From the IMG/VR virus record IMGVR_UViG_3300049255_000405: a stretch of 10,796 nt of DNA; one strand, written 5' to 3'. This document shows, in pieces, positions 411 through 10,433 of the stretch (positions are counted from its first letter, which is position 1; each line of letters opens with the position of its first letter). Under the pieces are notes generated by a model. It worked only from the letters and a program-made list of their open reading frames with translations, was not told the DNA's origin and did no database searches. The stretch comes from a virus. The position numbers were made by a program, and so were the translations under genes.

Positions 411-425
411 GTGTAACGTTGCCTG

Positions 426-454
426 TGGACACTCGCATTCCCGAAGGTTATATT
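426..454 (+). promoter_or_regulatory. candidate sigma70-type promoter, TGGACA (426-431) - 17 nt - TATATT (449-454), feeding the 473..1276 operon
   Basis: It sits in the 62-bp gap after the HNH stop. The -35 element matches the consensus at 5 of 6 positions and the -10 at 5 of 6, with a 17-nt spacer. The predicted transcription start near 461 leaves a short leader containing GGAG before the ATG at 473. Confidence 0.4.
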
Positions 455-472
455 CTCGTCTCCACAGCGGAG

Positions 473-706
473 ATGGCTCGCCTGACTGCGGAAAACGCCC
501 GTCTGCTCGAGCAAATTCGTGAGCTGCAACAGCACGGGACTCTCCGTGAAGAGCAGCTGCGTGCTTATCGTAGACTGGAATTTCCGCAAGAACAACTCAA
601 CAAGCTGAAAGCAGACCTGGAAGCGACGACGAAGAGGGTCCTTGACGCATATGGCCTAAAGCCGATGCACGAGGTCCTTCTTCCGCGTGTGGCAAACGGA
701 GCGTGA
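473..706 (+). CDS. small coiled-coil protein (77 aa), hypothetical
   Basis: ATG at 473, in frame with the tail of the 140..706 ORF. GCGGAG lies immediately upstream but is very close to the start. The product MARLTAENARLLEQIRELQQ... has heptad-like Leu/Glu/Arg periodicity. Its stop TGA (704-706) is 1 nt before the RRM-protein ATG. Third-position GC is lower than in neighbouring genes. Confidence 0.45.
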   Translation: MARLTAENARLLEQIRELQQHGTLREEQLRAYRRLEFPQEQLNKLKADLEATTKRVLDAYGLKPMHEVLLPRVANGA

Positions 707-707
707 C

Positions 708-1097
708 ATGGGCAATCGTATTTTCGTGGGCAACATCTCCTACAGCGTCTCGACCGAGGACCTCAAGTCGGCATTCGAGAGCTGCGGCACCATCACCGAC
801 GCCAAGGTGATGACTGACCGGGAAACCGGCCAGAGCCGCGGGTTCGGTTTCGTGACGTTCTCGTCCGATGCCGAAGCAGCCAAGGCCATCGAGACCTGGA
901 ACGGCGAGAACCTCGGCGGTCGCCAGCTCGTCGTCAACGAAGCCCACGCGCGCCCGGACAACCGCTCCGGTGGCGGCGGGGGTGGTGGCGGGAACCGTAG
1001 CGGCGGAGGCGGGGGTGGCCGTGGAGGCCCGCGTGGAGGCGGTGGCGGTCGGGATCGTGACGACCGCCGGCGTGGCCGCGACCGCGACTTCGGATGA
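708..1097 (+). CDS. RRM-domain glycine-rich RNA-binding protein with a C-terminal Gly/Arg/Asp-rich low-complexity tail
   Basis: ATG at 708 follows GGAG (697-700) after a 7-nt spacer. The protein has a textbook RNP2 motif (IFVGNI) and RNP1 motif (RGFGFVTF) with RRM-compatible spacing, followed by SGGGGGGGGNRSGGGGGGRGGPRGGGGGRDRDDRRRGRDRD. Third-position GC is high. The GTG at 687 opening the listed ORF is a less likely start. Confidence 0.9.
   Translation: MGNRIFVGNISYSVSTEDLKSAFESCGTITDAKVMTDRETGQSRGFGFVTFSSDAEAAKAIETWNGENLGGRQLVVNEAHARPDNRSGGGGGGGGNRSGGGGGGRGGPRGGGGGRDRDDRRRGRDRDFG
967..1086 (+). repeat. simple-sequence (GGN)n and (CGN/GAC) tract encoding the Gly/Arg/Asp tail of the RRM protein
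   Basis: There are runs of ggt/ggc/ggg/gga codons followed by cgg/cgt/gac codons. The tract also explains the spurious Pro/Arg/Ala-rich ORFs called in other frames and on the opposite strand (597..1100, 740..1117, 868..1182). Confidence 0.6.
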
Positions 1098-1276
1098 CAA
1101 AAGACCCGCTGGGTCACCAGTGGGTAATTTGTCAGAGGCCGCAGTATCGCGTCTGGTTATGCTCGCGTTGCGGCGCGACTGAGGTCGAAACCTACCTGCA
1201 CGGTCCCGTTGACTTCAACTCGAACGTGCGAGTGCCGTGTGACGAACACATCGTCCGTGCAGTGATGGAATCCTAG
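1094..1276 (+). CDS. small Cys-containing protein (60 aa), possible zinc ribbon; hypothetical
   Basis: Its ATG (1094-1096) overlaps the TGA stop of the RRM gene (ATGA), which suggests translational coupling. It has four Cys residues (C13, C23 and C26 as CxxC, C49). Its TAG stop shares the palindrome CTAG (1273-1276) with the stop of the convergent minus-strand gene. Confidence 0.5.
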   Translation: MTKDPLGHQWVICQRPQYRVWLCSRCGATEVETYLHGPVDFNSNVRVPCDEHIVRAVMES

Positions 1277-1698
1277 CCGTCTACCCAGTTCTTCGGGAAG
1301 AGGGATTCGAAGTCCTCCTTGTGGATGGACTCGAGCGCCTGCTTGGCGATGTCCTCGTCGAGGTCTTGAGTTTCGACGTGATCTTTCATCCGCGCTTGCG
1401 CCAACTCGCGCAGGTGCTTGACGATGGAGATCTTCCGAAGCCGGAACGCGAGCCCGCCCCACTCGTTTCCGGTCGCCTTGAGGTGCTTCTTGATGGCCGC
1501 CGACGATTCCCGGATGAGCTTGTCTTCCTTGACGAGAACCGGGTGGTCAGCCTCTTCGAGTAGCTGCTGGCTGATGTGTCGGCGGACGACTCTGTTGACG
1601 AACAGCTCGAATTCGTTGGAAACGAAGACCCTTTCGGGTTTTGCTTGTTCGGCTTGTCTGAGAGTTCTGTCCGAGGGCCTAGACCCGACAGCGCGCAT
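1273..1698 (-). CDS. hypothetical protein (141 aa)
   Basis: The minus-strand ATG (complement of 1696-1698) is preceded by a strong Shine-Dalgarno sequence, AGGAGA, with a 5-nt spacer. The charged, helical-looking product is MRAVGSRPSDRTLRQAEQ...FPKNWVDG. The upstream TTG at 1785 that opens the listed ORF lacks an SD. No family was recognised by eye. Confidence 0.7.
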   Translation of the reverse strand: MRAVGSRPSDRTLRQAEQAKPERVFVSNEFELFVNRVVRRHISQQLLEEADHPVLVKEDKLIRESSAAIKKHLKATGNEWGGLAFRLRKISIVKHLRELAQARMKDHVETQDLDEDIAKQALESIHKEDFESLFPKNWVDG

Positions 1699-2300: not shown

Positions 2301-2622
2301 CGAGGTAGTAGACAGCGGACAGGACCATGGGAAGGCCCAGCGTGATGGCCACCCATATCCACACCAGCCGGCGACGTACTGGAAGGATGAAGGAGCGCGT
2401 GTCGAGTACGTTGGCGAATGATGCGAGCCTCGAGCGCGAATCGTTCGGGCGAGGAACCTTGCACCAGACACAGATGGGTTGATCGATTGGTGATTGCTTG
2501 CCGCAGCTGGGGCAAGTCCAGGCTGGCTGATCGTTGGTCACGCTACTTACCACCGATAACAACTTCAGCAACTTTTTGTCTCTCGTTGGGTCGTGGCACT
2601 TGTCGATCCTAGCGGGAACCAA
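2281..2622 (-). CDS. membrane-anchored zinc-ribbon protein (C-x2-C ... C-x2-C plus a C-terminal transmembrane helix); start uncertain
   Basis: It contains CPSCG and CVWC pairs and a C-terminal hydrophobic helix, LVWIWVAITLGLPMVLSAVYYLV. The listed start is TTG (complement of 2620-2622) with no SD. An alternative GTG start (complement of 2539-2541) is preceded by GGTGG with an 8-nt spacer; it would remove the head-to-head overlap with the phosphatase gene and still retain the zinc ribbon. The 3' end overlaps the convergent RHH gene by 20 bp. Confidence 0.5.
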   Translation of the reverse strand: MVPARIDKCHDPTRDKKLLKLLSVVSSVTNDQPAWTCPSCGKQSPIDQPICVWCKVPRPNDSRSRLASFANVLDTRSFILPVRRRLVWIWVAITLGLPMVLSAVYYLVKHYLQ

Positions 2623-3093
2623 CTACTTTTGCAGCAGGAGCCTGCAACTGCATCCAAGATCCTTGGCAATCTCTGGATGGGTAGCGCTCCTCCGATAGGA
2701 CTAGGGGTCCGCCAGCACTTCGACTGCGTAGTGCTCTGCGCGATGGAGTATCAGCTGCCGCCCGAGTGCTTCCCGGGTGTCGAAGTGATTCACGCGCCGA
2801 TGAACGACGACGGCACTCCGATGACTGCCGAAGAGATGGAGATAGCCGTCCGCACTGCCGGCAAGGTGATCTCGCGCCTAGTCAACAAGCAGCGCGTGCT
2901 TTCCACCTGCCGCGCCGGCCGCAACAGATCCGGCATCGTTTGCGCCCTCGCTCTGTGCATGGGGCCGCCCAAGTACACGCCGCAGCGGGCGATTGCGCGC
3001 ATTCAAGCCGCGCGAGGTCCGTACGCGATGCGGAACAGCTACTTCAGAAACTTCCTGCACCAATTCTGCGGACCTAGAACGCAAGCTCCTTGA
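2593..3093 (+). CDS. dual-specificity (Cys-based) protein phosphatase, DUSP/PTP fold with the CX5R motif
   Basis: The active-site loop VLSTCRAGRNRSG matches VHCxAGxSRS. An upstream acidic loop (IHAPMNDDGTP) plays the role of the general-acid Asp. The N-terminal ILGNLWMGS resembles the DUSP beta1 signature (ILPGLYIGN). The start is GTG 2593 or TTG 2629. ATG 2677 would delete beta1 and is rejected. Confidence 0.85.
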   Translation: MALVDPSGNQLLLQQEPATASKILGNLWMGSAPPIGLGVRQHFDCVVLCAMEYQLPPECFPGVEVIHAPMNDDGTPMTAEEMEIAVRTAGKVISRLVNKQRVLSTCRAGRNRSGIVCALALCMGPPKYTPQRAIARIQAARGPYAMRNSYFRNFLHQFCGPRTQAP

Positions 3094-4656: not shown

Positions 4657-5805
4657 ATGGTACGTCAGGACAAAGACAAGTCGCACGACCCGATCGTGCA
4701 GTATTTCGCCGAAATTGGAGCGCATGATCTTCTCTCGCGTGAAGGGGAAGTCGCTGCTTTCCAGGATTTCGAGAAGGCGGAGGAGCTGCTCGTAGCACAG
4801 ATCGTCACCGGTCGCCGCGCGAAGGCCAGCCTTCCCAAGTTCCTCGAGTCCATCTCCAGTGAGAAGGATGTCGAGCCCGAGTATGTGAAGGTCGTCGAGG
4901 ACTTCTCTCGAGGCCGCTGCCACAACATCAGCCAATTCGTGCGGGCCGTCAGGTTCACAGATGCTGGGCGAGAGTGGCTCGACAAGCGCATCGCCGACCG
5001 TAAGCACGAGGAACTTCCTGCAACGTGGCACTCCAAGGTGCGGAAGCTTCACGCCAGACAGATGGCGCTCAAGAACGCTTTCGTTAGTGCCAACCTGCGG
5101 CTCGTGGTGTCGGTGGCGAAGAAGTATTCCAGGCCCTGGATGAGCCTGACCCTCAACGACCTCATCCAGGAGGGTAACCTGGGGCTCATCAAGGCCGTCG
5201 ACCGATTCGACGTGCACAAGGGCTACAAGTTCGCCACGTACGCCTCGTGGTGGATCAGGCATCACGTCAAGCGCGCGGTCCAGGAGAAAGAACCGCTCGT
5301 CCGCATCCCCGTGCACGTCAGCGACGTCATGGGGCAGCTCACTCGGCTGGACAATGTGCACCACGCCATCACCGGCGAGTCGCTCGACGAAGAGCAGCTC
5401 TCGAAGGCGACGGGCGCATCGGTTCAGAAGGTCAAGGCGGCCATCTCTCATCGTCCTGGGCGCAACGCGATGTCGCTCGATGCCATGGCGGGCGATTCGG
5501 ACGTTCCTTGGGTCGAGATGACACCCGACACTAAGATGCCGGACCCCGAGACTCAGCTCATGGAGTCTCGCATGAACGCGGATGTCCGGTCCATGCTCAC
5601 GGCACTCACGCCAATCGAGTCACGCATCCTGCGGTGGCGGTTCGGGCTCGACGGGGATTCGCAGACCCTGCAGGAGATCGCTGACAAGTTCAACCTGTCG
5701 CGCGAGCGTATCCGGCAGATAGAGTCTCGAGCTTTGCAGAAGCTCAAGAACCGAGCACGAGCCAGCGAGCACGCCCGGGACCTGTTCTTCCGCAAGACCG
5801 GCTGA
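4657..5805 (+). CDS. sigma-70-family RNA polymerase sigma factor with RpoD-like regions 1.2, 2.1-2.4, 3 and 4, and a non-conserved insertion between regions 1.2 and 2
   Basis: ATG at 4657 follows GAGGTGG after a short spacer. Region 1.2 is IVQYFAEIGAHDLLSREGEV. Region 2 is NLRLVVSVAKKYS...LNDLIQEGNLGLIKAVDRFDVHKGYKFATYASWWIRHHVKRAV. Region 4 is LTPIESRILRWRFGL...TLQEIADKFNLSRERIRQIESRALQKLKN. The GTG at 4642 that opens the listed ORF is less likely. Confidence 0.95.
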   Translation: MVRQDKDKSHDPIVQYFAEIGAHDLLSREGEVAAFQDFEKAEELLVAQIVTGRRAKASLPKFLESISSEKDVEPEYVKVVEDFSRGRCHNISQFVRAVRFTDAGREWLDKRIADRKHEELPATWHSKVRKLHARQMALKNAFVSANLRLVVSVAKKYSRPWMSLTLNDLIQEGNLGLIKAVDRFDVHKGYKFATYASWWIRHHVKRAVQEKEPLVRIPVHVSDVMGQLTRLDNVHHAITGESLDEEQLSKATGASVQKVKAAISHRPGRNAMSLDAMAGDSDVPWVEMTPDTKMPDPETQLMESRMNADVRSMLTALTPIESRILRWRFGLDGDSQTLQEIADKFNLSRERIRQIESRALQKLKNRARASEHARDLFFRKTG

Positions 5806-6737: not shown

Positions 6738-7060
6738 ACCCAGGAATAGTCAAGCTAGTAGCACTCCTTCAAGCCAACGGTTTCAGCACCACAGACAGCG
6801 GCGACGGCGAGACGCACGAATTCGAGTGCGACCGCGATTACGGCTATGTGGTGATAACGGTCGAGCCTACCAAGATGGTCGAGGAGTCGGATAGGCTCTG
6901 CGCGGTTCTCGCGCAGTACGGCATCACCGTCGTCGAAATCAGTGAGCAGGAAGCGCCGTGCATCCAGGCGTCGTACGACCCCGTCACCAAGTCGGCATTC
7001 ATCGACTTGATGTACGTGCACGACAAGCTCCTCAATGGCTCGCCTGGCCCAGCCAACTAA
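6734..7060 (+). CDS. hypothetical protein (108 aa)
   Basis: The ATG overlaps the preceding stop (ATGA), which suggests coupling. It has good coding third-position bias. The product is acidic: MNPGIVKLVALLQANGF...DKLLNGSPGPAN. Confidence 0.6.
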   Translation: MNPGIVKLVALLQANGFSTTDSGDGETHEFECDRDYGYVVITVEPTKMVEESDRLCAVLAQYGITVVEISEQEAPCIQASYDPVTKSAFIDLMYVHDKLLNGSPGPAN

Positions 7061-7220
7061 TCCGTGCCCGACGTGCCTAAATTACGGGTCAGACCCTGAA
7101 AAGGGAACCTGTCCGCGATGCAACCACCCGTGTCCGGCGGGCGCGCACAAGTACAACACCAACTACTACGACAGCTGCCCGTACTGCGAAGCTGCGGTGG
7201 AGCACGTTCACAATTCGTAG
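7035..7220 (+). CDS. small Cys-rich protein (61 aa, 8 Cys arranged CPTC...CPRC..CP...CPYC), probably zinc-binding
   Basis: ATG at 7035. It overlaps the previous gene by 26 nt and has no SD. The four CP-type Cys pairs are typical of a double zinc ribbon. Confidence 0.45.
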   Translation: MARLAQPTNPCPTCLNYGSDPEKGTCPRCNHPCPAGAHKYNTNYYDSCPYCEAAVEHVHNS

Positions 7221-7251: not shown

Positions 7252-8463
7252 ATGGCTTACGAGACCGTTCTCGGTGGAAACGTACCGATTCTCGCCTGGA
7301 CCGAAGGCGTCAAGTTCGAAGAGCATGCCAAGGTCCAGCTCCGGTACATCGCTATGTTGCCGATCATCTTCCGGCACGTGGCTGTGATGCCGGACGTCAC
7401 ACCCGAGCACGGGTCGACGGTCGGGAGTGTCATTCCCACCAAGGGCGCGGTCATTCCGGCCGCCGTGGGAGGTGACATCGGCTGCGGAATGATGGCCTGG
7501 CGCACGACGCTGACCTCGCACGACGTGTCGGACAACGCCCAAGAGCTGTACGACACCATCCTCGATGCGGTGCCCGTTCCTACATCCACCAAGCGCGTCA
7601 AGAACGACGGCAGCTGGGATGACGTCCCGCGGGAAGTTGCAGACGCCTGGGCCGGCATGCAGGCCGGTTGGCGCCAGATAGTCGGCCGCCACGGCAGGGC
7701 ATCGGCCAGGGATGTCCATAAGCAGCTCGGCACTCTTGGCGGCGGGAATCACTTCATCGAGGTTTGCCTCGACGAAGAAGATCGCGTGTGGTTCATGCTG
7801 CACTCAGGCTCGCGTCGCGCCGGCAACGCCATCGGCATGCATTTCATCGCGCTCGCGCGCAAAGACATGATGCGCCAGAACGTGCGCCTGCCGAATATGG
7901 ACCTGGCGTACTTCTCCGAAGGCTCCGAGCACTTCAACGACTACGTGTTCGCGGTCAAGTGGGCCCAAGAGTACGCTGCCGTCAACCGCGACCTCATGAT
8001 GCAGCGAATCGTCCGCGCCGTACGCAAGAAGCTCGGCGTGAAGTTCATGCTCGACGAGGAGGCAATCAACTGCCACCACAACTACGTCGAGAAAGAGACC
8101 CACTTCGGCGAAGAGATTTTCGTCACCCGCAAGGGAGCCATCTCCGCGCGCCAAGGGCAACTCGGCATCATCCCGGGCTCTATGGGAACCGAGAGCTTCA
8201 TCGTACGCGGTCTCGGAAATGCCGACTCTTTCTGTTCATCATCGCACGGAGCCGGCCGAACGATGCCGCGAGGGGAAGCTGGTCAGCGCATCACGCTCGA
8301 GCAGCACCGCAAGGACACCGAGGGAATCGTGTGCCGCAAGGACAAGGGCGTGGTCGACGAATCGCCGACTGCGTACAAGGACGTCAACGCGGTCATGGCG
8401 GCGCAAACGGATCTTGTCGAGAAGGTCCACACACTCCGGCAAATTGTCAACATCAAGGGCTAG
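7252..8463 (+). CDS. rtcB: RtcB-family 3'-phosphate/5'-hydroxyl RNA ligase
   Basis: ATG at 7252. The family signature blocks are all present: GGDIGCGM, GGGNHFIE, LHSGSRRAGN, NCHHNY, and the C-terminal HGAGR that carries the guanylylated His. The length of 403 aa matches bacterial RtcB, and no intein-sized insertion is present. Confidence 0.95.
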   Translation: MAYETVLGGNVPILAWTEGVKFEEHAKVQLRYIAMLPIIFRHVAVMPDVTPEHGSTVGSVIPTKGAVIPAAVGGDIGCGMMAWRTTLTSHDVSDNAQELYDTILDAVPVPTSTKRVKNDGSWDDVPREVADAWAGMQAGWRQIVGRHGRASARDVHKQLGTLGGGNHFIEVCLDEEDRVWFMLHSGSRRAGNAIGMHFIALARKDMMRQNVRLPNMDLAYFSEGSEHFNDYVFAVKWAQEYAAVNRDLMMQRIVRAVRKKLGVKFMLDEEAINCHHNYVEKETHFGEEIFVTRKGAISARQGQLGIIPGSMGTESFIVRGLGNADSFCSSSHGAGRTMPRGEAGQRITLEQHRKDTEGIVCRKDKGVVDESPTAYKDVNAVMAAQTDLVEKVHTLRQIVNIKG

Positions 8464-9667: not shown

Positions 9668-10152
9668 GCACCAACCCGCAGATCGCCATGACCATCCGGT
9701 CAGAGCCGGGTTGGAGGGCCGTTCTCAGAAAGCCTCTGCAGCGTCCTCCACAGCCTGAGGACGTTCCCGGTGAATTGCTGTACAAGCTCGTGATACAGCC
9801 CATCCGGTTTTGGGGCTTCACCCTTCCGGTCTACAGCGAATATCTGCGTCGTAAACCCGTCCCGCCCGCCGTACCCGCGCCGGTGTCTGACTCGGCTGAC
9901 GCTCTGTCGAAGATGTTCGAGGCCGGGATTCTCAGCAATGAGACTATGATCTCGTCCGTCTCCCATATGCAGCCCAACGACGTCGTGCAGCCGATCCCGC
10001 TGGGCAAAGGACGCAAGGCGTTCAGCCACCTGGTGGACGTCGTCAGCCCGGACGAGACCGACGAGCAGGCTCTTTCACGCATCGAGGCGGTTTACGAGAA
10101 CGAACGCATGACCAAGCGCCTGCGGGCAGTTCTCTTCGTGATGGAGTCATGA
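9661..10152 (+). CDS. hypothetical protein (163 aa)
   Basis: ATG at 9661. A TACAAT hexamer (9637-9642) lies 18 nt upstream. Coding bias is good. Its stop overlaps the next ATG (ATGA at 10149-10152). Confidence 0.6.
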   Translation: MSSTNPQIAMTIRSEPGWRAVLRKPLQRPPQPEDVPGELLYKLVIQPIRFWGFTLPVYSEYLRRKPVPPAVPAPVSDSADALSKMFEAGILSNETMISSVSHMQPNDVVQPIPLGKGRKAFSHLVDVVSPDETDEQALSRIEAVYENERMTKRLRAVLFVMES

Positions 10153-10409: not shown

Positions 10410-10433
10410 GAAACTTCAACCAACGGAGAGTGC

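What the first reader, a model, noticed from the sequence alone, without database searches (positions are those of the whole stretch)
708..1097. Eukaryote- or cyanobacteria-type RRM glycine-rich RNA-binding protein in a phage-like or mobile context
The protein has perfect RNP2 (IFVGNI) and RNP1 (RGFGFVTF) motifs followed by a long GGGG/RGG/RD low-complexity tail. Single-RRM glycine-rich proteins are well known in cyanobacteria (the Rbp family) and plants (GRPs) but are uncommon in phage or mobile-element gene sets. It sits in an operon behind a candidate promoter and a small coiled-coil protein, and it is translationally coupled (ATGA) to a 4-Cys microprotein. It could be an RNA chaperone for the neighbouring RNA-repair genes or a host-takeover factor. 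The RGG and RD tail is the kind of sequence associated with RNA-driven condensate formation.
Basis: partly seen in the sequence, partly recalled or inferred. Interest (0 to 1): 0.6.

Follow-up and report, generated by a model that had tools for sequence, protein, structure and literature searches.

The report
RRM RNA-binding protein in huge phage
The window encodes a genuine RNA-recognition-motif protein with a floppy glycine/arginine tail. It is a conserved gene of an uncultivated lineage of very large (about 400 kb) phage-like elements, a setting where this common RNA-binding fold has hardly been reported.

Summary
ORF 708-1097 encodes a 129-aa protein with a canonical single RRM (Pfam RRM_1, E=3e-23). 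AlphaFold2 gives a beta-alpha-beta-beta-alpha-beta fold with intact RNP1 and RNP2, followed by a disordered tail that is 46% Gly and 24% Arg.

The DNA is not bacterial chromosome. The same gene order recurs in at least 9 lineages of metagenomic contigs of 242-445 kb: HNH, small helical protein, RRM, then a DSP-like phosphatase and a sigma-70-like factor. Two of these contigs are IMG/VR viral contigs. Most lineages carry two tRNA(UCA) genes and a tmRNA a few kb upstream, and the closest lineage also has IF3. This matches the "huge phage" profile.

The RRM is vertically inherited and better conserved than most neighbouring genes. Its nearest cellular relatives are ordinary bacterial Gly-rich RRM proteins (Myxococcota, Planctomycetota, Acidobacteriota; at most 61% identity), not cyanobacterial or eukaryotic ones.

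- The promoter lies inside the upstream ORF and is not conserved.
- The link to RtcB fails on co-occurrence.
- The 4-Cys ORF is real but restricted to this lineage.

The most likely function is a phage-encoded single-stranded-RNA chaperone or mRNA-binding factor. I rate it a new member of a known kind, of moderate interest.

The parts
708..1097 (+). RRM glycine/arginine-rich RNA-binding protein gene (129 aa)
   Evidence: Pfam RRM_1 E=3.2e-23. AF2 gives the RRM fold. An identical protein, P0001, is found on metagenome contigs up to 85.6 kb. The gene is conserved at 52-82% identity in at least 9 syntenic lineages.
708..953 (+). RRM domain (residues 1-82), with RNP2 at nt 720-737 and RNP1 at nt 837-860
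   Evidence: AF2 elements are E4-8, H16-23, E29-36, E43-51, H54-64 and E75-78. R44, G45, F46 and F48 of RNP1 are invariant in 34 aligned homologues, and F6 alternates only with Y.
954..1094 (+). Disordered Gly/Arg-rich tail (residues 83-129) ending in an RD-rich stretch and an aromatic residue (..GRDRDDRRRGRDRDFG)
   Evidence: pLDDT is below 50; composition is. Length varies even between the window (129 aa) and the 96%-identical L087 copy (127 aa).
419..706 (+). Upstream partner ORF: a small two-helix (coiled-coil-like) protein, 95 aa from TTG 419 (77 aa if from ATG 473). Its stop codon lies 1 nt before the RRM start.
   Evidence: It sits directly upstream of the RRM in 7 of 9 syntenic lineages, at 33-57% identity, with a conserved core EEQLRAYRRLE. 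Single-sequence AF2 gives helices 16-52 and 57-77. It has no Pfam, PHROG or NCBIfam family.
698..701 (+). Shine-Dalgarno GGAG for the RRM gene, inside the 3' end of the upstream ORF
   Evidence: Read directly from the sequence.
1094..1276 (+). 60-aa ORF with four Cys (C13, C23, C26, C49) and His52 after C49 (possible zinc-binding site); its ATG overlaps the RRM stop codon (ATGA)
   Evidence: Against L087 there are 7 substitutions, 5 synonymous and 2 Ile-to-Val, plus one in-frame 21-nt indel, which indicates a coding sequence under purifying selection. It is absent after the RRM in L088, L091, L094, L209, L210 and L211. It matches no family.
1103..1115 (-). Hairpin GACCCAGCGGGTC followed by TTTT on the minus strand: a terminator-like site for the convergent gene at 1273-1698(-)
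   Evidence: Consensus scan only; such sites were no more frequent than in shuffled sequence, so this is weak evidence.
426..454 (+).
   Evidence: It matches 10 of 12 consensus positions. However, it overlaps codons 3-12 of the upstream ORF, whose amino acids IPEGYIL align with IPEGHIV in L091, and the -10 hexamer is CATGTT in L087.

Best explanation
The gene encodes a phage-borne, bacterial-type, single-RRM glycine/arginine-rich protein that binds single-stranded RNA. It is a vertically inherited gene of an uncultivated clade of huge phages, seen on contigs of 242-445 kb. It sits in a conserved block with a phage sigma-70-like factor and a DSP-like phosphatase, a few kb from a tRNA(UCA)/tmRNA island (plus IF3 in the closest lineage).

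Proposed mechanism. The beta-sheet face (RNP1 and RNP2 aromatic residues) stacks on single-stranded RNA bases with low sequence specificity. The disordered RG/RD tail adds electrostatic RNA contacts and self-association. Together these would let the protein coat, melt or stabilise RNA, acting as an RNA chaperone or mRNA-binding factor. During infection this would support the stability, folding or translation of phage transcripts, probably together with the small helical protein encoded immediately upstream and translated from the same mRNA.

Shown here: the fold, the intact RNA-binding motifs, the disordered tail, the conservation, the gene coupling and the phage-like context. Inferred: RNA binding, chaperone activity, the RNA targets, the timing of expression and the partnership with the upstream protein.
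For: Protein identity:
- Pfam RRM_1, E=3.2e-23.
- AF2 gives an RRM fold plus a disordered tail.
- Solved-structure relatives include the RNA chaperone NtGR-RBP1 (4c7q, 2.8e-19), CIRBP (1x5s, 9.4e-18) and RBM3 (7eb1).
- NCBIfam 'RNA-binding regulator' NF058537 scores 95.5 bits, just under its cut-off of 100.
- The RNP1 and RNP2 aromatic residues are invariant or conservatively replaced in 34 homologues.

Conservation:
- Synteny is conserved in L087, L088, L091, L094, L098, L209, L210 and L211.
- The RRM domain is 68-74% identical in lineages where the sigma factor is 48-51%, the phosphatase 54-68% and the upstream ORF 40-58% identical. This points to strong purifying selection.

Phage-like context:
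- Two syntenic contigs are IMG/VR viral contigs of 393 kb and 63 kb.
- Only about 30% of neighbouring genes have any Pfam hit.
- PHROG hits include a phage sigma factor (5.9e-70), RtcB and HNH, and a UvsX-like recombinase (1.5e-45) and a RuvC-like resolvase.
- L211 carries a collagen-plus-lectin, tail-fibre-like gene.
- A tmRNA and two tRNA(UCA) lie upstream, with IF3 in L081 and L087.
- This agrees with the published description of huge phages (PMC7162821).

Mechanistic precedents:
- The Gly-rich region of NtGR-RBP1 mediates self-association and enhances nucleic-acid melting (PMC4117745).
- Cyanobacterial Rbp3 is associated with ribosomes and with the 3' ends of mRNAs (PMC12232666).
Against: - There is no experimental or expression data.
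- No capsid, portal or terminase gene was seen in the roughly 45 kb examined. The phage assignment, as opposed to a plasmid-like megaelement, therefore rests on IMG/VR classification and gene content. PMC7162821 notes that some large plasmid-like elements carry similar translation genes.
- An RRM fold alone does not reveal its targets; RRMs can also bind single-stranded DNA or proteins.
- The upstream helical partner is missing in L210 and L098, so it is not obligatory.
Confidence: 0.55

Rival explanations
1. Translation-reprogramming factor. The RRM protein associates with host ribosomes or with specific phage mRNAs or tRNA-like RNAs. It works with the neighbouring phage tRNA(UCA) pair, tmRNA and IF3 to bias translation toward phage messages.
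For: - The RRM lies 2-6 kb downstream of two tRNA(UCA) genes in 7 syntenic lineages, six of which also have a tmRNA there, and about 1 kb from IF3 in L081 and L087.
- RRM genes in other huge IMG/VR contigs also sit near tRNA arrays (L095, L099, L100, L115, L117; L210 has tRNA-Leu 29 nt after the RRM stop).
- Among the best solved-structure matches are ribosomal RRM proteins: chloroplast cS22 (1e-25) and mitoribosomal mS86.
- Rbp3 co-purifies with ribosomes (PMC12232666).
Against: - Proximity in a gene-dense phage is weak evidence, and no background rate of tRNA proximity was computed.
- The PDB similarity is generic RRM similarity.
- IF3 was detected by Pfam only in the window's own lineage (L081, L087).
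- L211 keeps the RRM but has only one tRNA(CUA) and no tmRNA within 7 kb upstream.
Confidence: 0.2
2. Host-takeover, anti-defence or condensate scaffold. The RG/RD-rich tail drives RNA-dependent phase separation or sequesters host RNAs (mRNAs, sRNAs, defence-system RNAs), forming a phage RNP compartment.
For: - The tail is longer in the phage clade (37-65 aa) than in bacterial relatives (median 36 aa), and it has an added alternating-charge RD/RE terminal segment.
- The tail is disordered.
- Gly-rich tails mediate self-association in NtGR-RBP1.
Against: This is purely compositional inference. Bacterial housekeeping homologues have similar tails. There is no PADLOC or anti-defence evidence, and none was sought. 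The tail length is unstable, which argues against a precise scaffold.
Confidence: 0.12
3. Accessory RNA chaperone of the RtcB RNA-repair pathway. It would hold broken tRNA or mRNA ends in place for ligation by the RtcB encoded 6 kb downstream.
For: RtcB (7252-8463; Pfam 7.9e-119) lies in the same block in the window, L091, L094 and L209.
Against: - RtcB is absent from the 10 kb downstream in L087 (96% identical RRM), L088, L210, L211 and L098, all of which keep the RRM.
- None of the 80 RtcB-bearing IMG/VR loci showed a tblastn match (E<=1e-5) to the window's RRM protein within the fetched +/-10 kb flanks.
- Nine or more genes separate the two.
Confidence: 0.05
4. An ordinary chromosomal gene of an Rbp-rich bacterium, or a bacterial fragment mis-binned as viral.
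For: - Bacterial genomes are full of near-identical architectures: 598 of 600 pattern hits in species-representative genomes encode relatives.
- Tree support for a separate phage clade is only 64 of 100 bootstraps.
Against: - None of the 80 best genome loci shares the window's gene order; one (L129) has a sigma-like match beside the RRM at 39% identity, and the rest match nothing but the RRM.
- About 70% of neighbouring genes have no Pfam family, and the genes are short and mostly co-oriented.
- IMG/VR classifies two syntenic contigs as viral.
- Independent assemblies reach maximum contig lengths of about 390-445 kb.
- HNH, a phage-type sigma factor, a UvsX-like recombinase, a tmRNA and suppressor-type tRNAs are all present.
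Confidence: 0.03

Closest known systems
Bacterial single-RRM glycine-rich 'RNA-binding proteins' of Myxococcota, Planctomycetota, Acidobacteriota and others (mostly uncharacterised; NCBIfam NF058537 'RNA-binding regulator')
   Same: - The architecture is the same: an N-terminal MGN(R/K)-hydrophobic-aromatic-VGNL start, one RRM, then a Gly/Arg tail ending near an aromatic residue.
- Identity over the domain is 45-61%.
- NF058537 scores 95.5 bits.
   Different: - The score is just below the NF058537 cut-off of 100.
- The phage clade has a longer tail (37-65 aa against a median of 36 aa) with an RD/RE-rich end.
- The genomic context is entirely different.
- It has a helical partner ORF upstream.
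Cyanobacterial Rbp family (Synechocystis Rbp1/2/3, Anabaena RbpA-type)
   Same: A single RRM with or without a Gly-rich C-terminus. Described roles are in cold acclimation and in mRNA and ribosome association (PMC9333190 abstract; PMC12232666).
   Different: No cyanobacterial genome is among the 80 best species-representative hits. Cyanobacterial plasmid copies are 52-55% identical. There is no evidence of cold regulation, and the gene is not in a cyanobacterial or cyanophage context.
Plant GR-RBPs (NtGR-RBP1, AtGRP7) and vertebrate CIRBP and RBM3
   Same: RRM plus a disordered Gly-rich tail. PDB 4c7q scores 2.8e-19, 1x5s 9.4e-18 and 7eb1 1.4e-15. They provide the RNA-chaperone model, with tail-mediated self-association (PMC4117745).
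   Different: They are eukaryotic and more distant than the bacterial relatives; the best eukaryotic hit among the top 120, Tribonema, is 48% identical. The plant tails are described, from memory, as GGYGG-rich rather than RD-rich.
Microcystis phage MaAM05 hypothetical protein (MW495066.1, 176,687-177,340): the only cultured-phage relative found
   Same: An RRM homologue (42% identity over 79 aa) in a 274-kb jumbo phage that also encodes an rpoD-like sigma factor.
   Different: It is annotated only as hypothetical. The ORF is larger (217 aa), the neighbours differ (zur, mggB), and there is no synteny with the window.
Translation- and RNA-related gene repertoire of huge phages (Al-Shayeb et al. 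2020, PMC7162821)
   Same: IF3, tmRNA, tRNAs, sigma-70 and tRNA-repair ligase genes are reported as typical of phages larger than 200 kb, and all occur around this gene.
   Different: That paper's text contains no occurrence of 'RNA-binding' or 'RNA recognition'. An RRM protein is not part of the described repertoire.
RRM proteins of eukaryotic giant viruses and baculoviruses
   Same: They are the only significant structural matches in the viral structure library BFVD (Pithovirus 2.7e-8, Mimiviridae, Marseillevirus, NPV BJDP).
   Different: Identity is only 12-34%, they infect eukaryotic hosts, and they are usually multidomain. No bacteriophage protein matched at E<=0.001.

Membership tests
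RRM (Pfam PF00076 RRM_1) | Profile score above the curated gathering threshold | tested here: met
   81.8 bits against a cut-off of 20.7, E=3.2e-23, covering profile positions 1-69 of 70.
RRM (Pfam PF00076 RRM_1) | RNP1 octamer [RK]-G-[FY]-[GA]-[FY]-[VIL]-x-[FY] and RNP2 hexamer [ILV]-[FY]-[ILV]-x-N-[LI] (consensus recalled from established knowledge) | tested here: met
   RGFGFVTF is residues 44-51 and IFVGNI is residues 5-10. R44, G45, F46 and F48 are invariant in 34 homologues.
RRM (Pfam PF00076 RRM_1) | b1-a1-b2-b3-a2-b4 fold | tested here: met
   AF2 elements E4-8, H16-23, E29-36, E43-51, H54-64 and E75-78, with pLDDT 84-88.
RRM (Pfam PF00076 RRM_1) | Binds single-stranded RNA | not testable with these tools
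   Requires EMSA or CLIP.
Glycine-rich RNA-binding proteins (single RRM plus Gly-rich C-terminus; plant class IVa GRPs, cyanobacterial type-I Rbp) | One N-terminal RRM followed by a disordered Gly-rich region | tested here: met
   The tail is 46% Gly with pLDDT below 50.
   The 80 best species-representative genome hits are Myxococcota, Planctomycetota, Acidobacteriota, Hydrogenedentota and others, with no cyanobacteria. The NJ tree places the clade next to Myxococcota, though support is weak.
Glycine-rich RNA-binding proteins (single RRM plus Gly-rich C-terminus; plant class IVa GRPs, cyanobacterial type-I Rbp) | Cold or stress induction and RNA-chaperone activity | not testable with these tools
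   No expression or biochemical data are available.
NCBIfam NF058537 Rbp_regulator (RNA-binding regulator, equivalog domain) | Score at or above the curated cut-off (100 bits) | tested here: not met
   95.5 bits, E=1.8e-27, covering profile positions 2-79 of 79. This is a near miss.
Huge phages (>200 kb) with translation-related genes (PMC7162821) | Replicon larger than 200 kb | tested here: inconclusive
   The window's exact protein lies on contigs of at most 85.6 kb. Syntenic relatives lie on contigs of 242 kb, 393 kb (IMG/VR) and 439-445 kb. Completeness and circularity were not checked.
Huge phages (>200 kb) with translation-related genes (PMC7162821) | Virion hallmark genes (major capsid, portal, terminase, tail) | tested here: inconclusive
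   The only candidate is a collagen-plus-Laminin_G_3 protein with tail-fibre PHROG hits (1.7e-54) in L211. IMG/VR classifies two syntenic contigs as viral. No capsid or terminase gene lies within the roughly 45 kb inspected.
Huge phages (>200 kb) with translation-related genes (PMC7162821) | Phage-encoded tRNAs, tmRNA, initiation factor and sigma factor | tested here: met
   - tmRNA: Rfam 116.6 bits.
- Two tRNA(UCA) genes.
- IF3_N and IF3_C domains.
- Sigma-70 regions 2 and 4, and phrog_351 at 5.9e-70.
RtcB RNA-repair module (as a functional partner) | Consistent co-occurrence of the RRM gene with RtcB | tested here: not met
   RtcB is absent near the RRM in L087, L088, L210, L211 and L098. 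No RRM match was found in the fetched flanks of the 80 RtcB-bearing viral loci.

The most novel reading that the evidence does not exclude
The RRM protein and its co-translated helical partner form a phage-specific module that reprograms translation. It would act together with the adjacent UGA-reading tRNA pair, the phage tmRNA and IF3. It might do this by marking phage mRNAs or ribosomes, or by nucleating an RNA-protein condensate through the RG/RD tail that serves as a phage translation compartment. If so, RRM proteins would be a recurrent, so far unrecognised component of the translational takeover kit of huge phages.
Probability: 0.12. Interest if true: 0.8.

Novelty: new member of a known kind. 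Interest (0 to 1): 0.42.

Why it matters
RRM proteins are the commonest RNA-binding proteins of eukaryotes but are poorly studied in bacteria and essentially undescribed in bacteriophages:
- No PHROG family matches.
- Only 3 of 50,697 phage records hold a relative.
- No phage hit appears in the viral structure library.
- Five full-text literature searches aimed at RRM proteins in phages or viruses found no report, and the key huge-phage paper contains neither 'RNA-binding' nor 'RNA recognition'.

Here the RRM is a strongly conserved gene of a whole clade of roughly 400-kb phage-like elements. RRM genes are also markedly enriched on very large viral contigs: 11 of 33 RRM-bearing IMG/VR contigs exceed 200 kb, against 1 of 80 RtcB-bearing contigs (p=3e-6).

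This adds post-transcriptional RNA binding to the known list of host-like gene-expression functions carried by huge phages. It also offers a compact, easily expressed protein for testing what bacterial-type Gly-rich RRM proteins do.

Tried and rejected
1. Searching IMG/VR with the single protein found nothing. An alignment-based search was needed.
2. I looked for a close cultured phage or plasmid relative by DNA. The only hits were about 72% identity over about 550 nt of RtcB in three phage records (two phages), and a 170-nt sigma-like stretch in a Nonomuraea replicon.
3. The promoter at 426-454 is rejected because it lies in coding sequence and is not conserved.
4. I tested whether the conserved 9-mer GTGTAMCRT after the HNH stop codon is a repeated phage promoter motif. 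It occurs once per locus and no more often than chance in the window, so it remains unexplained.
5. A G-quadruplex autoregulation idea (RGG tail binding its own GGN-rich mRNA, after PMC11789052) found no canonical three-tetrad motif in the gene, only two-tetrad runs. It was not pursued.
6. A crude test for stop-codon recoding, counting stop codons inside cross-lineage tblastn alignments, was uninformative because off-frame ORFs contaminated the query set. All 22 window genes are intact under the standard code.
7. Read-through of the RRM's TGA stop would add only 11 residues and does not fuse it to the Cys-rich ORF.
8. Walking along the contigs to reach virion genes was blocked by tool restrictions on which proteins may be looked up. 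One step downstream gave recombination genes only.
10. The phylogeny of an 82-aa domain is weakly resolved (64 of 100 bootstraps for clade monophyly; Myxococcota on the sister side in about 28 of those 64). Host assignment to Myxococcota is only a lead.
Full report

Sequence search of solved structures returns only RRM proteins. They include the plant RNA chaperone NtGR-RBP1 (4c7q, 2.8e-19), CIRBP (1x5s, 9.4e-18), RBM3, and the ribosomal RRM proteins cS22 and mS86. The 50 residues after 'VNEA' are 46% Gly, 24% Arg and 12% Asp/Glu, with net charge +6. A GGAG lies 6 nt upstream of ATG 708. All homologues start with MGN(R/K), which fixes the start codon. The ATGA overlap with a 60-aa, four-Cys ORF (1094-1276) is present.

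**2. What kind of DNA is this?** It is not an ordinary chromosome. The identical protein (P0001) occurs on several metagenomic contigs, up to 85.6 kb. Close and more distant relatives lie on contigs of 242 kb, 439 kb and 445 kb, and on an IMG/VR viral contig of 393 kb.

tblastn with all window proteins shows one conserved gene order: HNH, small helical ORF, RRM, a convergent ORF, a DSP-like phosphatase, a sigma-70-like factor, then AAA_28 and RtcB in some lineages. This order appears in L087, L088-90, L091-93, L094 (IMG/VR, 393 kb) and L098 (IMG/VR, 63 kb). It also appears in the contigs of P0003, P0022 and P0019 (L209-L211). That makes at least nine lineages, with RRM identity of 52-82%.

Only about 30% of the called genes in these loci have any Pfam hit (10 of 31, 10 of 36, 11 of 40). 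The genes are short and mostly co-oriented. The following features point to a phage:
- a phage-type sigma factor (phrog_351, 5.9e-70), RtcB (phrog_1075, 8e-129) and HNH;
- a UvsX-like recombinase (1.5e-45) and a RuvC-like resolvase just downstream of the window;
- a collagen-repeat plus ConA-lectin protein with tail-fibre PHROG hits in L211;
- two normal-sized tRNAs with anticodon UCA a few kb upstream of the RRM in seven lineages, with a tmRNA in six of them (ARAGORN; Rfam tmRNA 116.6 bits and the general tRNA model);
- IF3 in L081 and L087.

This is the profile described for huge phages by Al-Shayeb et al. 2020: IF3, tmRNAs, sigma-70 and tRNA ligation genes (PMC7162821).

Against a chromosomal origin, none of the 80 best species-representative genome hits to the RRM shares the window's gene order. 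One, L129, has a sigma-like match at 39% identity beside the RRM; the others match nothing but the RRM. No cultured phage or plasmid resembles the window at the DNA level beyond a piece of RtcB or of the sigma gene.

One caveat remains. I saw no capsid, portal or terminase gene in the roughly 45 kb I could inspect. PMC7162821 warns that some large plasmid-like elements carry similar translation genes. 'Huge phage' is therefore well supported but not proven.

**3. Where does the RRM come from?** Single-RRM Gly-rich proteins are abundant in bacteria. In species-representative genomes, 598 of 600 pattern-matched stretches encode relatives. The best 80 are Myxococcota (Polyangia, Sorangium), Planctomycetota, Acidobacteriota (Pyrinomonadaceae), Hydrogenedentota, Nitrospirota and others, at 45-61% identity. 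None is cyanobacterial. The best eukaryotic protein in the top 120 is 48% identical.

In a neighbour-joining tree of the 82-aa domain, the syntenic sequences form one clade next to Myxococcota. Bootstrap support is modest: 64 of 100 for the clade, with Myxococcota on the sister side in about 28 of those 64.

Within the clade the RRM domain is 68-74% identical in lineages where the sigma factor is 48-51%, the phosphatase 54-68% and the upstream ORF 40-58% identical. The gene is therefore old in this lineage and under strong purifying selection. Tails in the clade are 37-65 aa long, 36-57% Gly and 13-28% Arg, with net charge +3 to +7. They typically end in an RD/RE-rich stretch with an aromatic residue. 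Bacterial relatives have shorter tails (median 36 aa), ending in W or Y in 54 of 68. Tail length differs even between the window and its 96%-identical relative (129 against 127 aa).

**4. How unusual is an RRM in a phage?**

| Collection | Result |
|---|---|
| PHROGs (38,880 families) | no family matches at E<=0.01 |
| Phage records (50,697) | 3 hold a relative: jumbo Microcystis phage MaAM05 (42%) and two 'Acinetobacter phage MD-2021a' records (35%) |
| BFVD viral structure library | all significant matches are giant viruses of eukaryotes or baculoviruses; no phage protein at E<=0.001 |
| Plasmid records (72,556) | 211 hold a relative |
| IMG/VR viral contigs | at least 33 encode relatives; 11 of these exceed 200 kb |

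For comparison, only 1 of the 80 RtcB-bearing IMG/VR contigs exceeds 200 kb (Fisher p=3e-6). One of the 11 large RRM-bearing contigs looks like a giant virus. Several of the others carry tRNA arrays near the RRM. Five full-text searches aimed at RRM proteins in phages or viruses found no paper describing a phage-encoded RRM protein. The huge-phage paper, found by a separate search, contains neither 'RNA-binding' nor 'RNA recognition'.

**5.

(a) Promoter. TGGACA-17-TATATT at 426-454 matches 10 of 12 consensus positions. Protein and DNA alignments show, however, that the upstream ORF starts at TTG 419 or GTG 425. Its residues IPEGYIL align with IPEGHIV in L091. The '-10' element is CATGTT in L087, through changes that are amino-acid replacements toward the L091 residues. 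It behaves as coding sequence.

(b) Upstream coiled-coil protein. This is supported. It is a 95-aa (or 77-aa) protein predicted as two helices. It is conserved directly upstream of the RRM, with spacing of -1 to +12 nt, in 7 of 9 lineages. It belongs to no known family.

(c) 4-Cys ORF. Against L087 it shows five synonymous and two Ile-to-Val changes plus an in-frame 21-nt indel, so it is a real gene. The 1-nt deletion at its start in L087 sits in an A-run, in a contig that also shows breaks in the reading frames of AAA_28 and the upstream ORF. It is therefore probably an assembly error. The ORF is absent in all other lineages and so is not part of the conserved unit.

(d) RtcB link. RtcB is missing near the RRM in five lineages, including L087. 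A dedicated partnership is unlikely. The DSP-like phosphatase and the sigma factor, in contrast, accompany the RRM in every lineage.

**6. Most likely mechanism.**

Shown: an intact RRM with its RNA-stacking aromatic residues; a disordered cationic RG/RD tail; strong conservation; translational coupling to a helical partner; and a location in a block of gene-expression functions of a huge phage-like element.

Inferred from established knowledge of RRM and GR-RBP proteins (PMC4117745; PMC12232666):
- The beta-sheet binds single-stranded RNA with low specificity.
- The tail adds RNA contacts and self-association, giving chaperone or coating activity.
- During infection this stabilises or remodels phage transcripts, or helps their translation.

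I put about 0.55 on this general RNA-chaperone or mRNA-binding role. I put about 0.2 on a more specific ribosome or translation role tied to the neighbouring tRNA(UCA)/tmRNA/IF3 island, about 0.12 on sequestration or condensate roles, about 0.05 on an RtcB accessory role, and about 0.03 on the DNA being chromosomal.

**7. Comparison with known families.** It works like, and belongs to, the RRM superfamily: score, motifs and fold were all tested and met. It has the GR-RBP architecture. It is not a member of the cyanobacterial or plant lineages by similarity, and it narrowly misses NCBIfam NF058537 (95.5 against 100 bits). The closest cultured-phage counterpart is an unannotated ORF of Microcystis jumbo phage MaAM05.

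**8. Verdict.** This is a real, well-conserved RRM RNA-binding protein in a huge-phage-like genome: a new member of a known protein kind in an unusual and essentially undescribed setting. Interest is moderate (0.42). A specialist would find it noteworthy rather than startling, and its function is readily testable. The more novel possibility is a dedicated translation-takeover or condensate module acting with the suppressor-type tRNAs, tmRNA and IF3. That is not excluded, but it has little direct support (probability about 0.12).

Noticed in passing
L081 4337-4410 and 4626-4699 (upstream of the window); also L087, L088, L091, L093, L094, L209, L210: There are two normal-sized (73-76 nt) tRNAs with anticodon UCA, which would read the UGA stop codon. 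ARAGORN labels them 'SeC', but Rfam matches the general tRNA model (65 and 59 bits). They are conserved in seven syntenic lineages. L211 instead has a tRNA(CUA), and the unrelated huge contig L115 has two. In the window, 10 of 22 genes end in TGA. The phage may recode or suppress UGA late in infection; the amino-acid identity of these tRNAs is unknown.
   Followed up: partly
L081 5387-5793 (upstream of the window); also L088, L091, L093, L094, L098, L209, L210: A phage-encoded one-piece tmRNA (Rfam RF00023, 116.6 bits, full length). The tag peptide is ANDNAFAVAA in L081 and varies between lineages (ANDNSIRQAA, ANDNALAAAA, ANDNGTALQAAA). It lies between the tRNA(UCA) pair and IF3.
   Followed up: partly
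L081 6012-6545 and L087 8594-9127: A translation initiation factor IF3 gene (IF3_N plus IF3_C) lies about 1 kb upstream of the RRM, separated from it only by the HNH gene and the helical ORF.
   Followed up: no
window 2593-3093 (+): A DSP-like cysteine phosphatase (Pfam DSPc 2.1e-5, below its cut-off) with an intact CX5R(S) loop, 'CRAGRNRS'. It accompanies the RRM and the sigma factor in all nine syntenic lineages. Some members of this superfamily are RNA 5'-phosphatases (from memory: baculovirus BVP, DUSP11), so an RNA-end-modifying role is conceivable.
   Followed up: no
window 4657-5805 (+): A phage-encoded sigma-70 family factor with regions 1.2, 2 and 4 (region 3 weak); phrog_351 scores 5.9e-70. 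It is 40-51% identical across the more distant lineages (96% in L087). The nearest cultured-phage relatives are at most 41% identical; the identifiable ones are jumbo phages, Vibrio 2.275.O and Microcystis MaAM05, at 26-36%.
   Followed up: partly
window 7035-7220 (+) and 7252-8463 (+): A 61-aa Cys-rich (CxxC ... CxxC ... CxxC) zinc-ribbon-like microprotein sits directly upstream of RtcB. L091 has a 61%-identical copy in the same position, which suggests a small partner or regulator of the ligase. The RtcB block itself is present in some lineages and absent in others.
   Followed up: no
window 411-419 (+); same position in L087, L088, L091, L209: The 9-mer GTGTAMCRT immediately after the HNH stop codon and before the helical ORF is conserved in five lineages whose flanking sequence has diverged. 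It occurs only once per locus and is not a repeated promoter motif. Its function is unknown.
   Followed up: partly
L081 1334-1516, L091 4306-4488, L209 1061-1243, L210 6039-6221: Another 60-aa ORF overlaps the preceding 102-141-aa ORF by 4 nt and has the same size and position across lineages. The L081 and L091 copies are clearly similar (MK(L/V)G(D/E)(K/Q)L(H/Y)VVVC...); the L209 and L210 copies were not compared by sequence. It is unrelated to the Cys-rich ORF next to the RRM.
   Followed up: no
L081 535-1029: A 164-aa ORF with OrfB_IS605 / Cas12f1-like_TNB Pfam hits. It looks like a truncated TnpB-like remnant within the phage-like contig.
   Followed up: no
L087 (JGI 3300062134, 242-kb contig), e.g. 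9826-10040, 10420-10430, 15281-15836: The closest relative contig shows breaks in the reading frames of the helical ORF, the Cys-rich ORF (a 1-nt deletion in an A-run) and AAA_28. This pattern is typical of homopolymer errors in an assembly, so gene calls there (for example a 140-aa RRM) should be treated with care.
   Followed up: partly
L093 111-2113 versus L091 1-3800: Two otherwise near-identical contigs differ upstream. One carries TatA, a bacterial globin and an FMN reductase. The other carries a Dam methylase, a response-regulator receiver and an OMP decarboxylase. This indicates a variable accessory-gene region in this phage population.
   Followed up: no
L095, L099, L108, L112 (IMG/VR contigs of 192-417 kb): A second, separate cluster of RRM Gly/Arg-rich proteins groups together in the tree and shares no window-protein match other than the RRM. 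L095 and L099 have tRNA arrays within 1.5-3.3 kb of the RRM. This suggests independent or ancient acquisition of RRM genes by other huge phages.
   Followed up: partly
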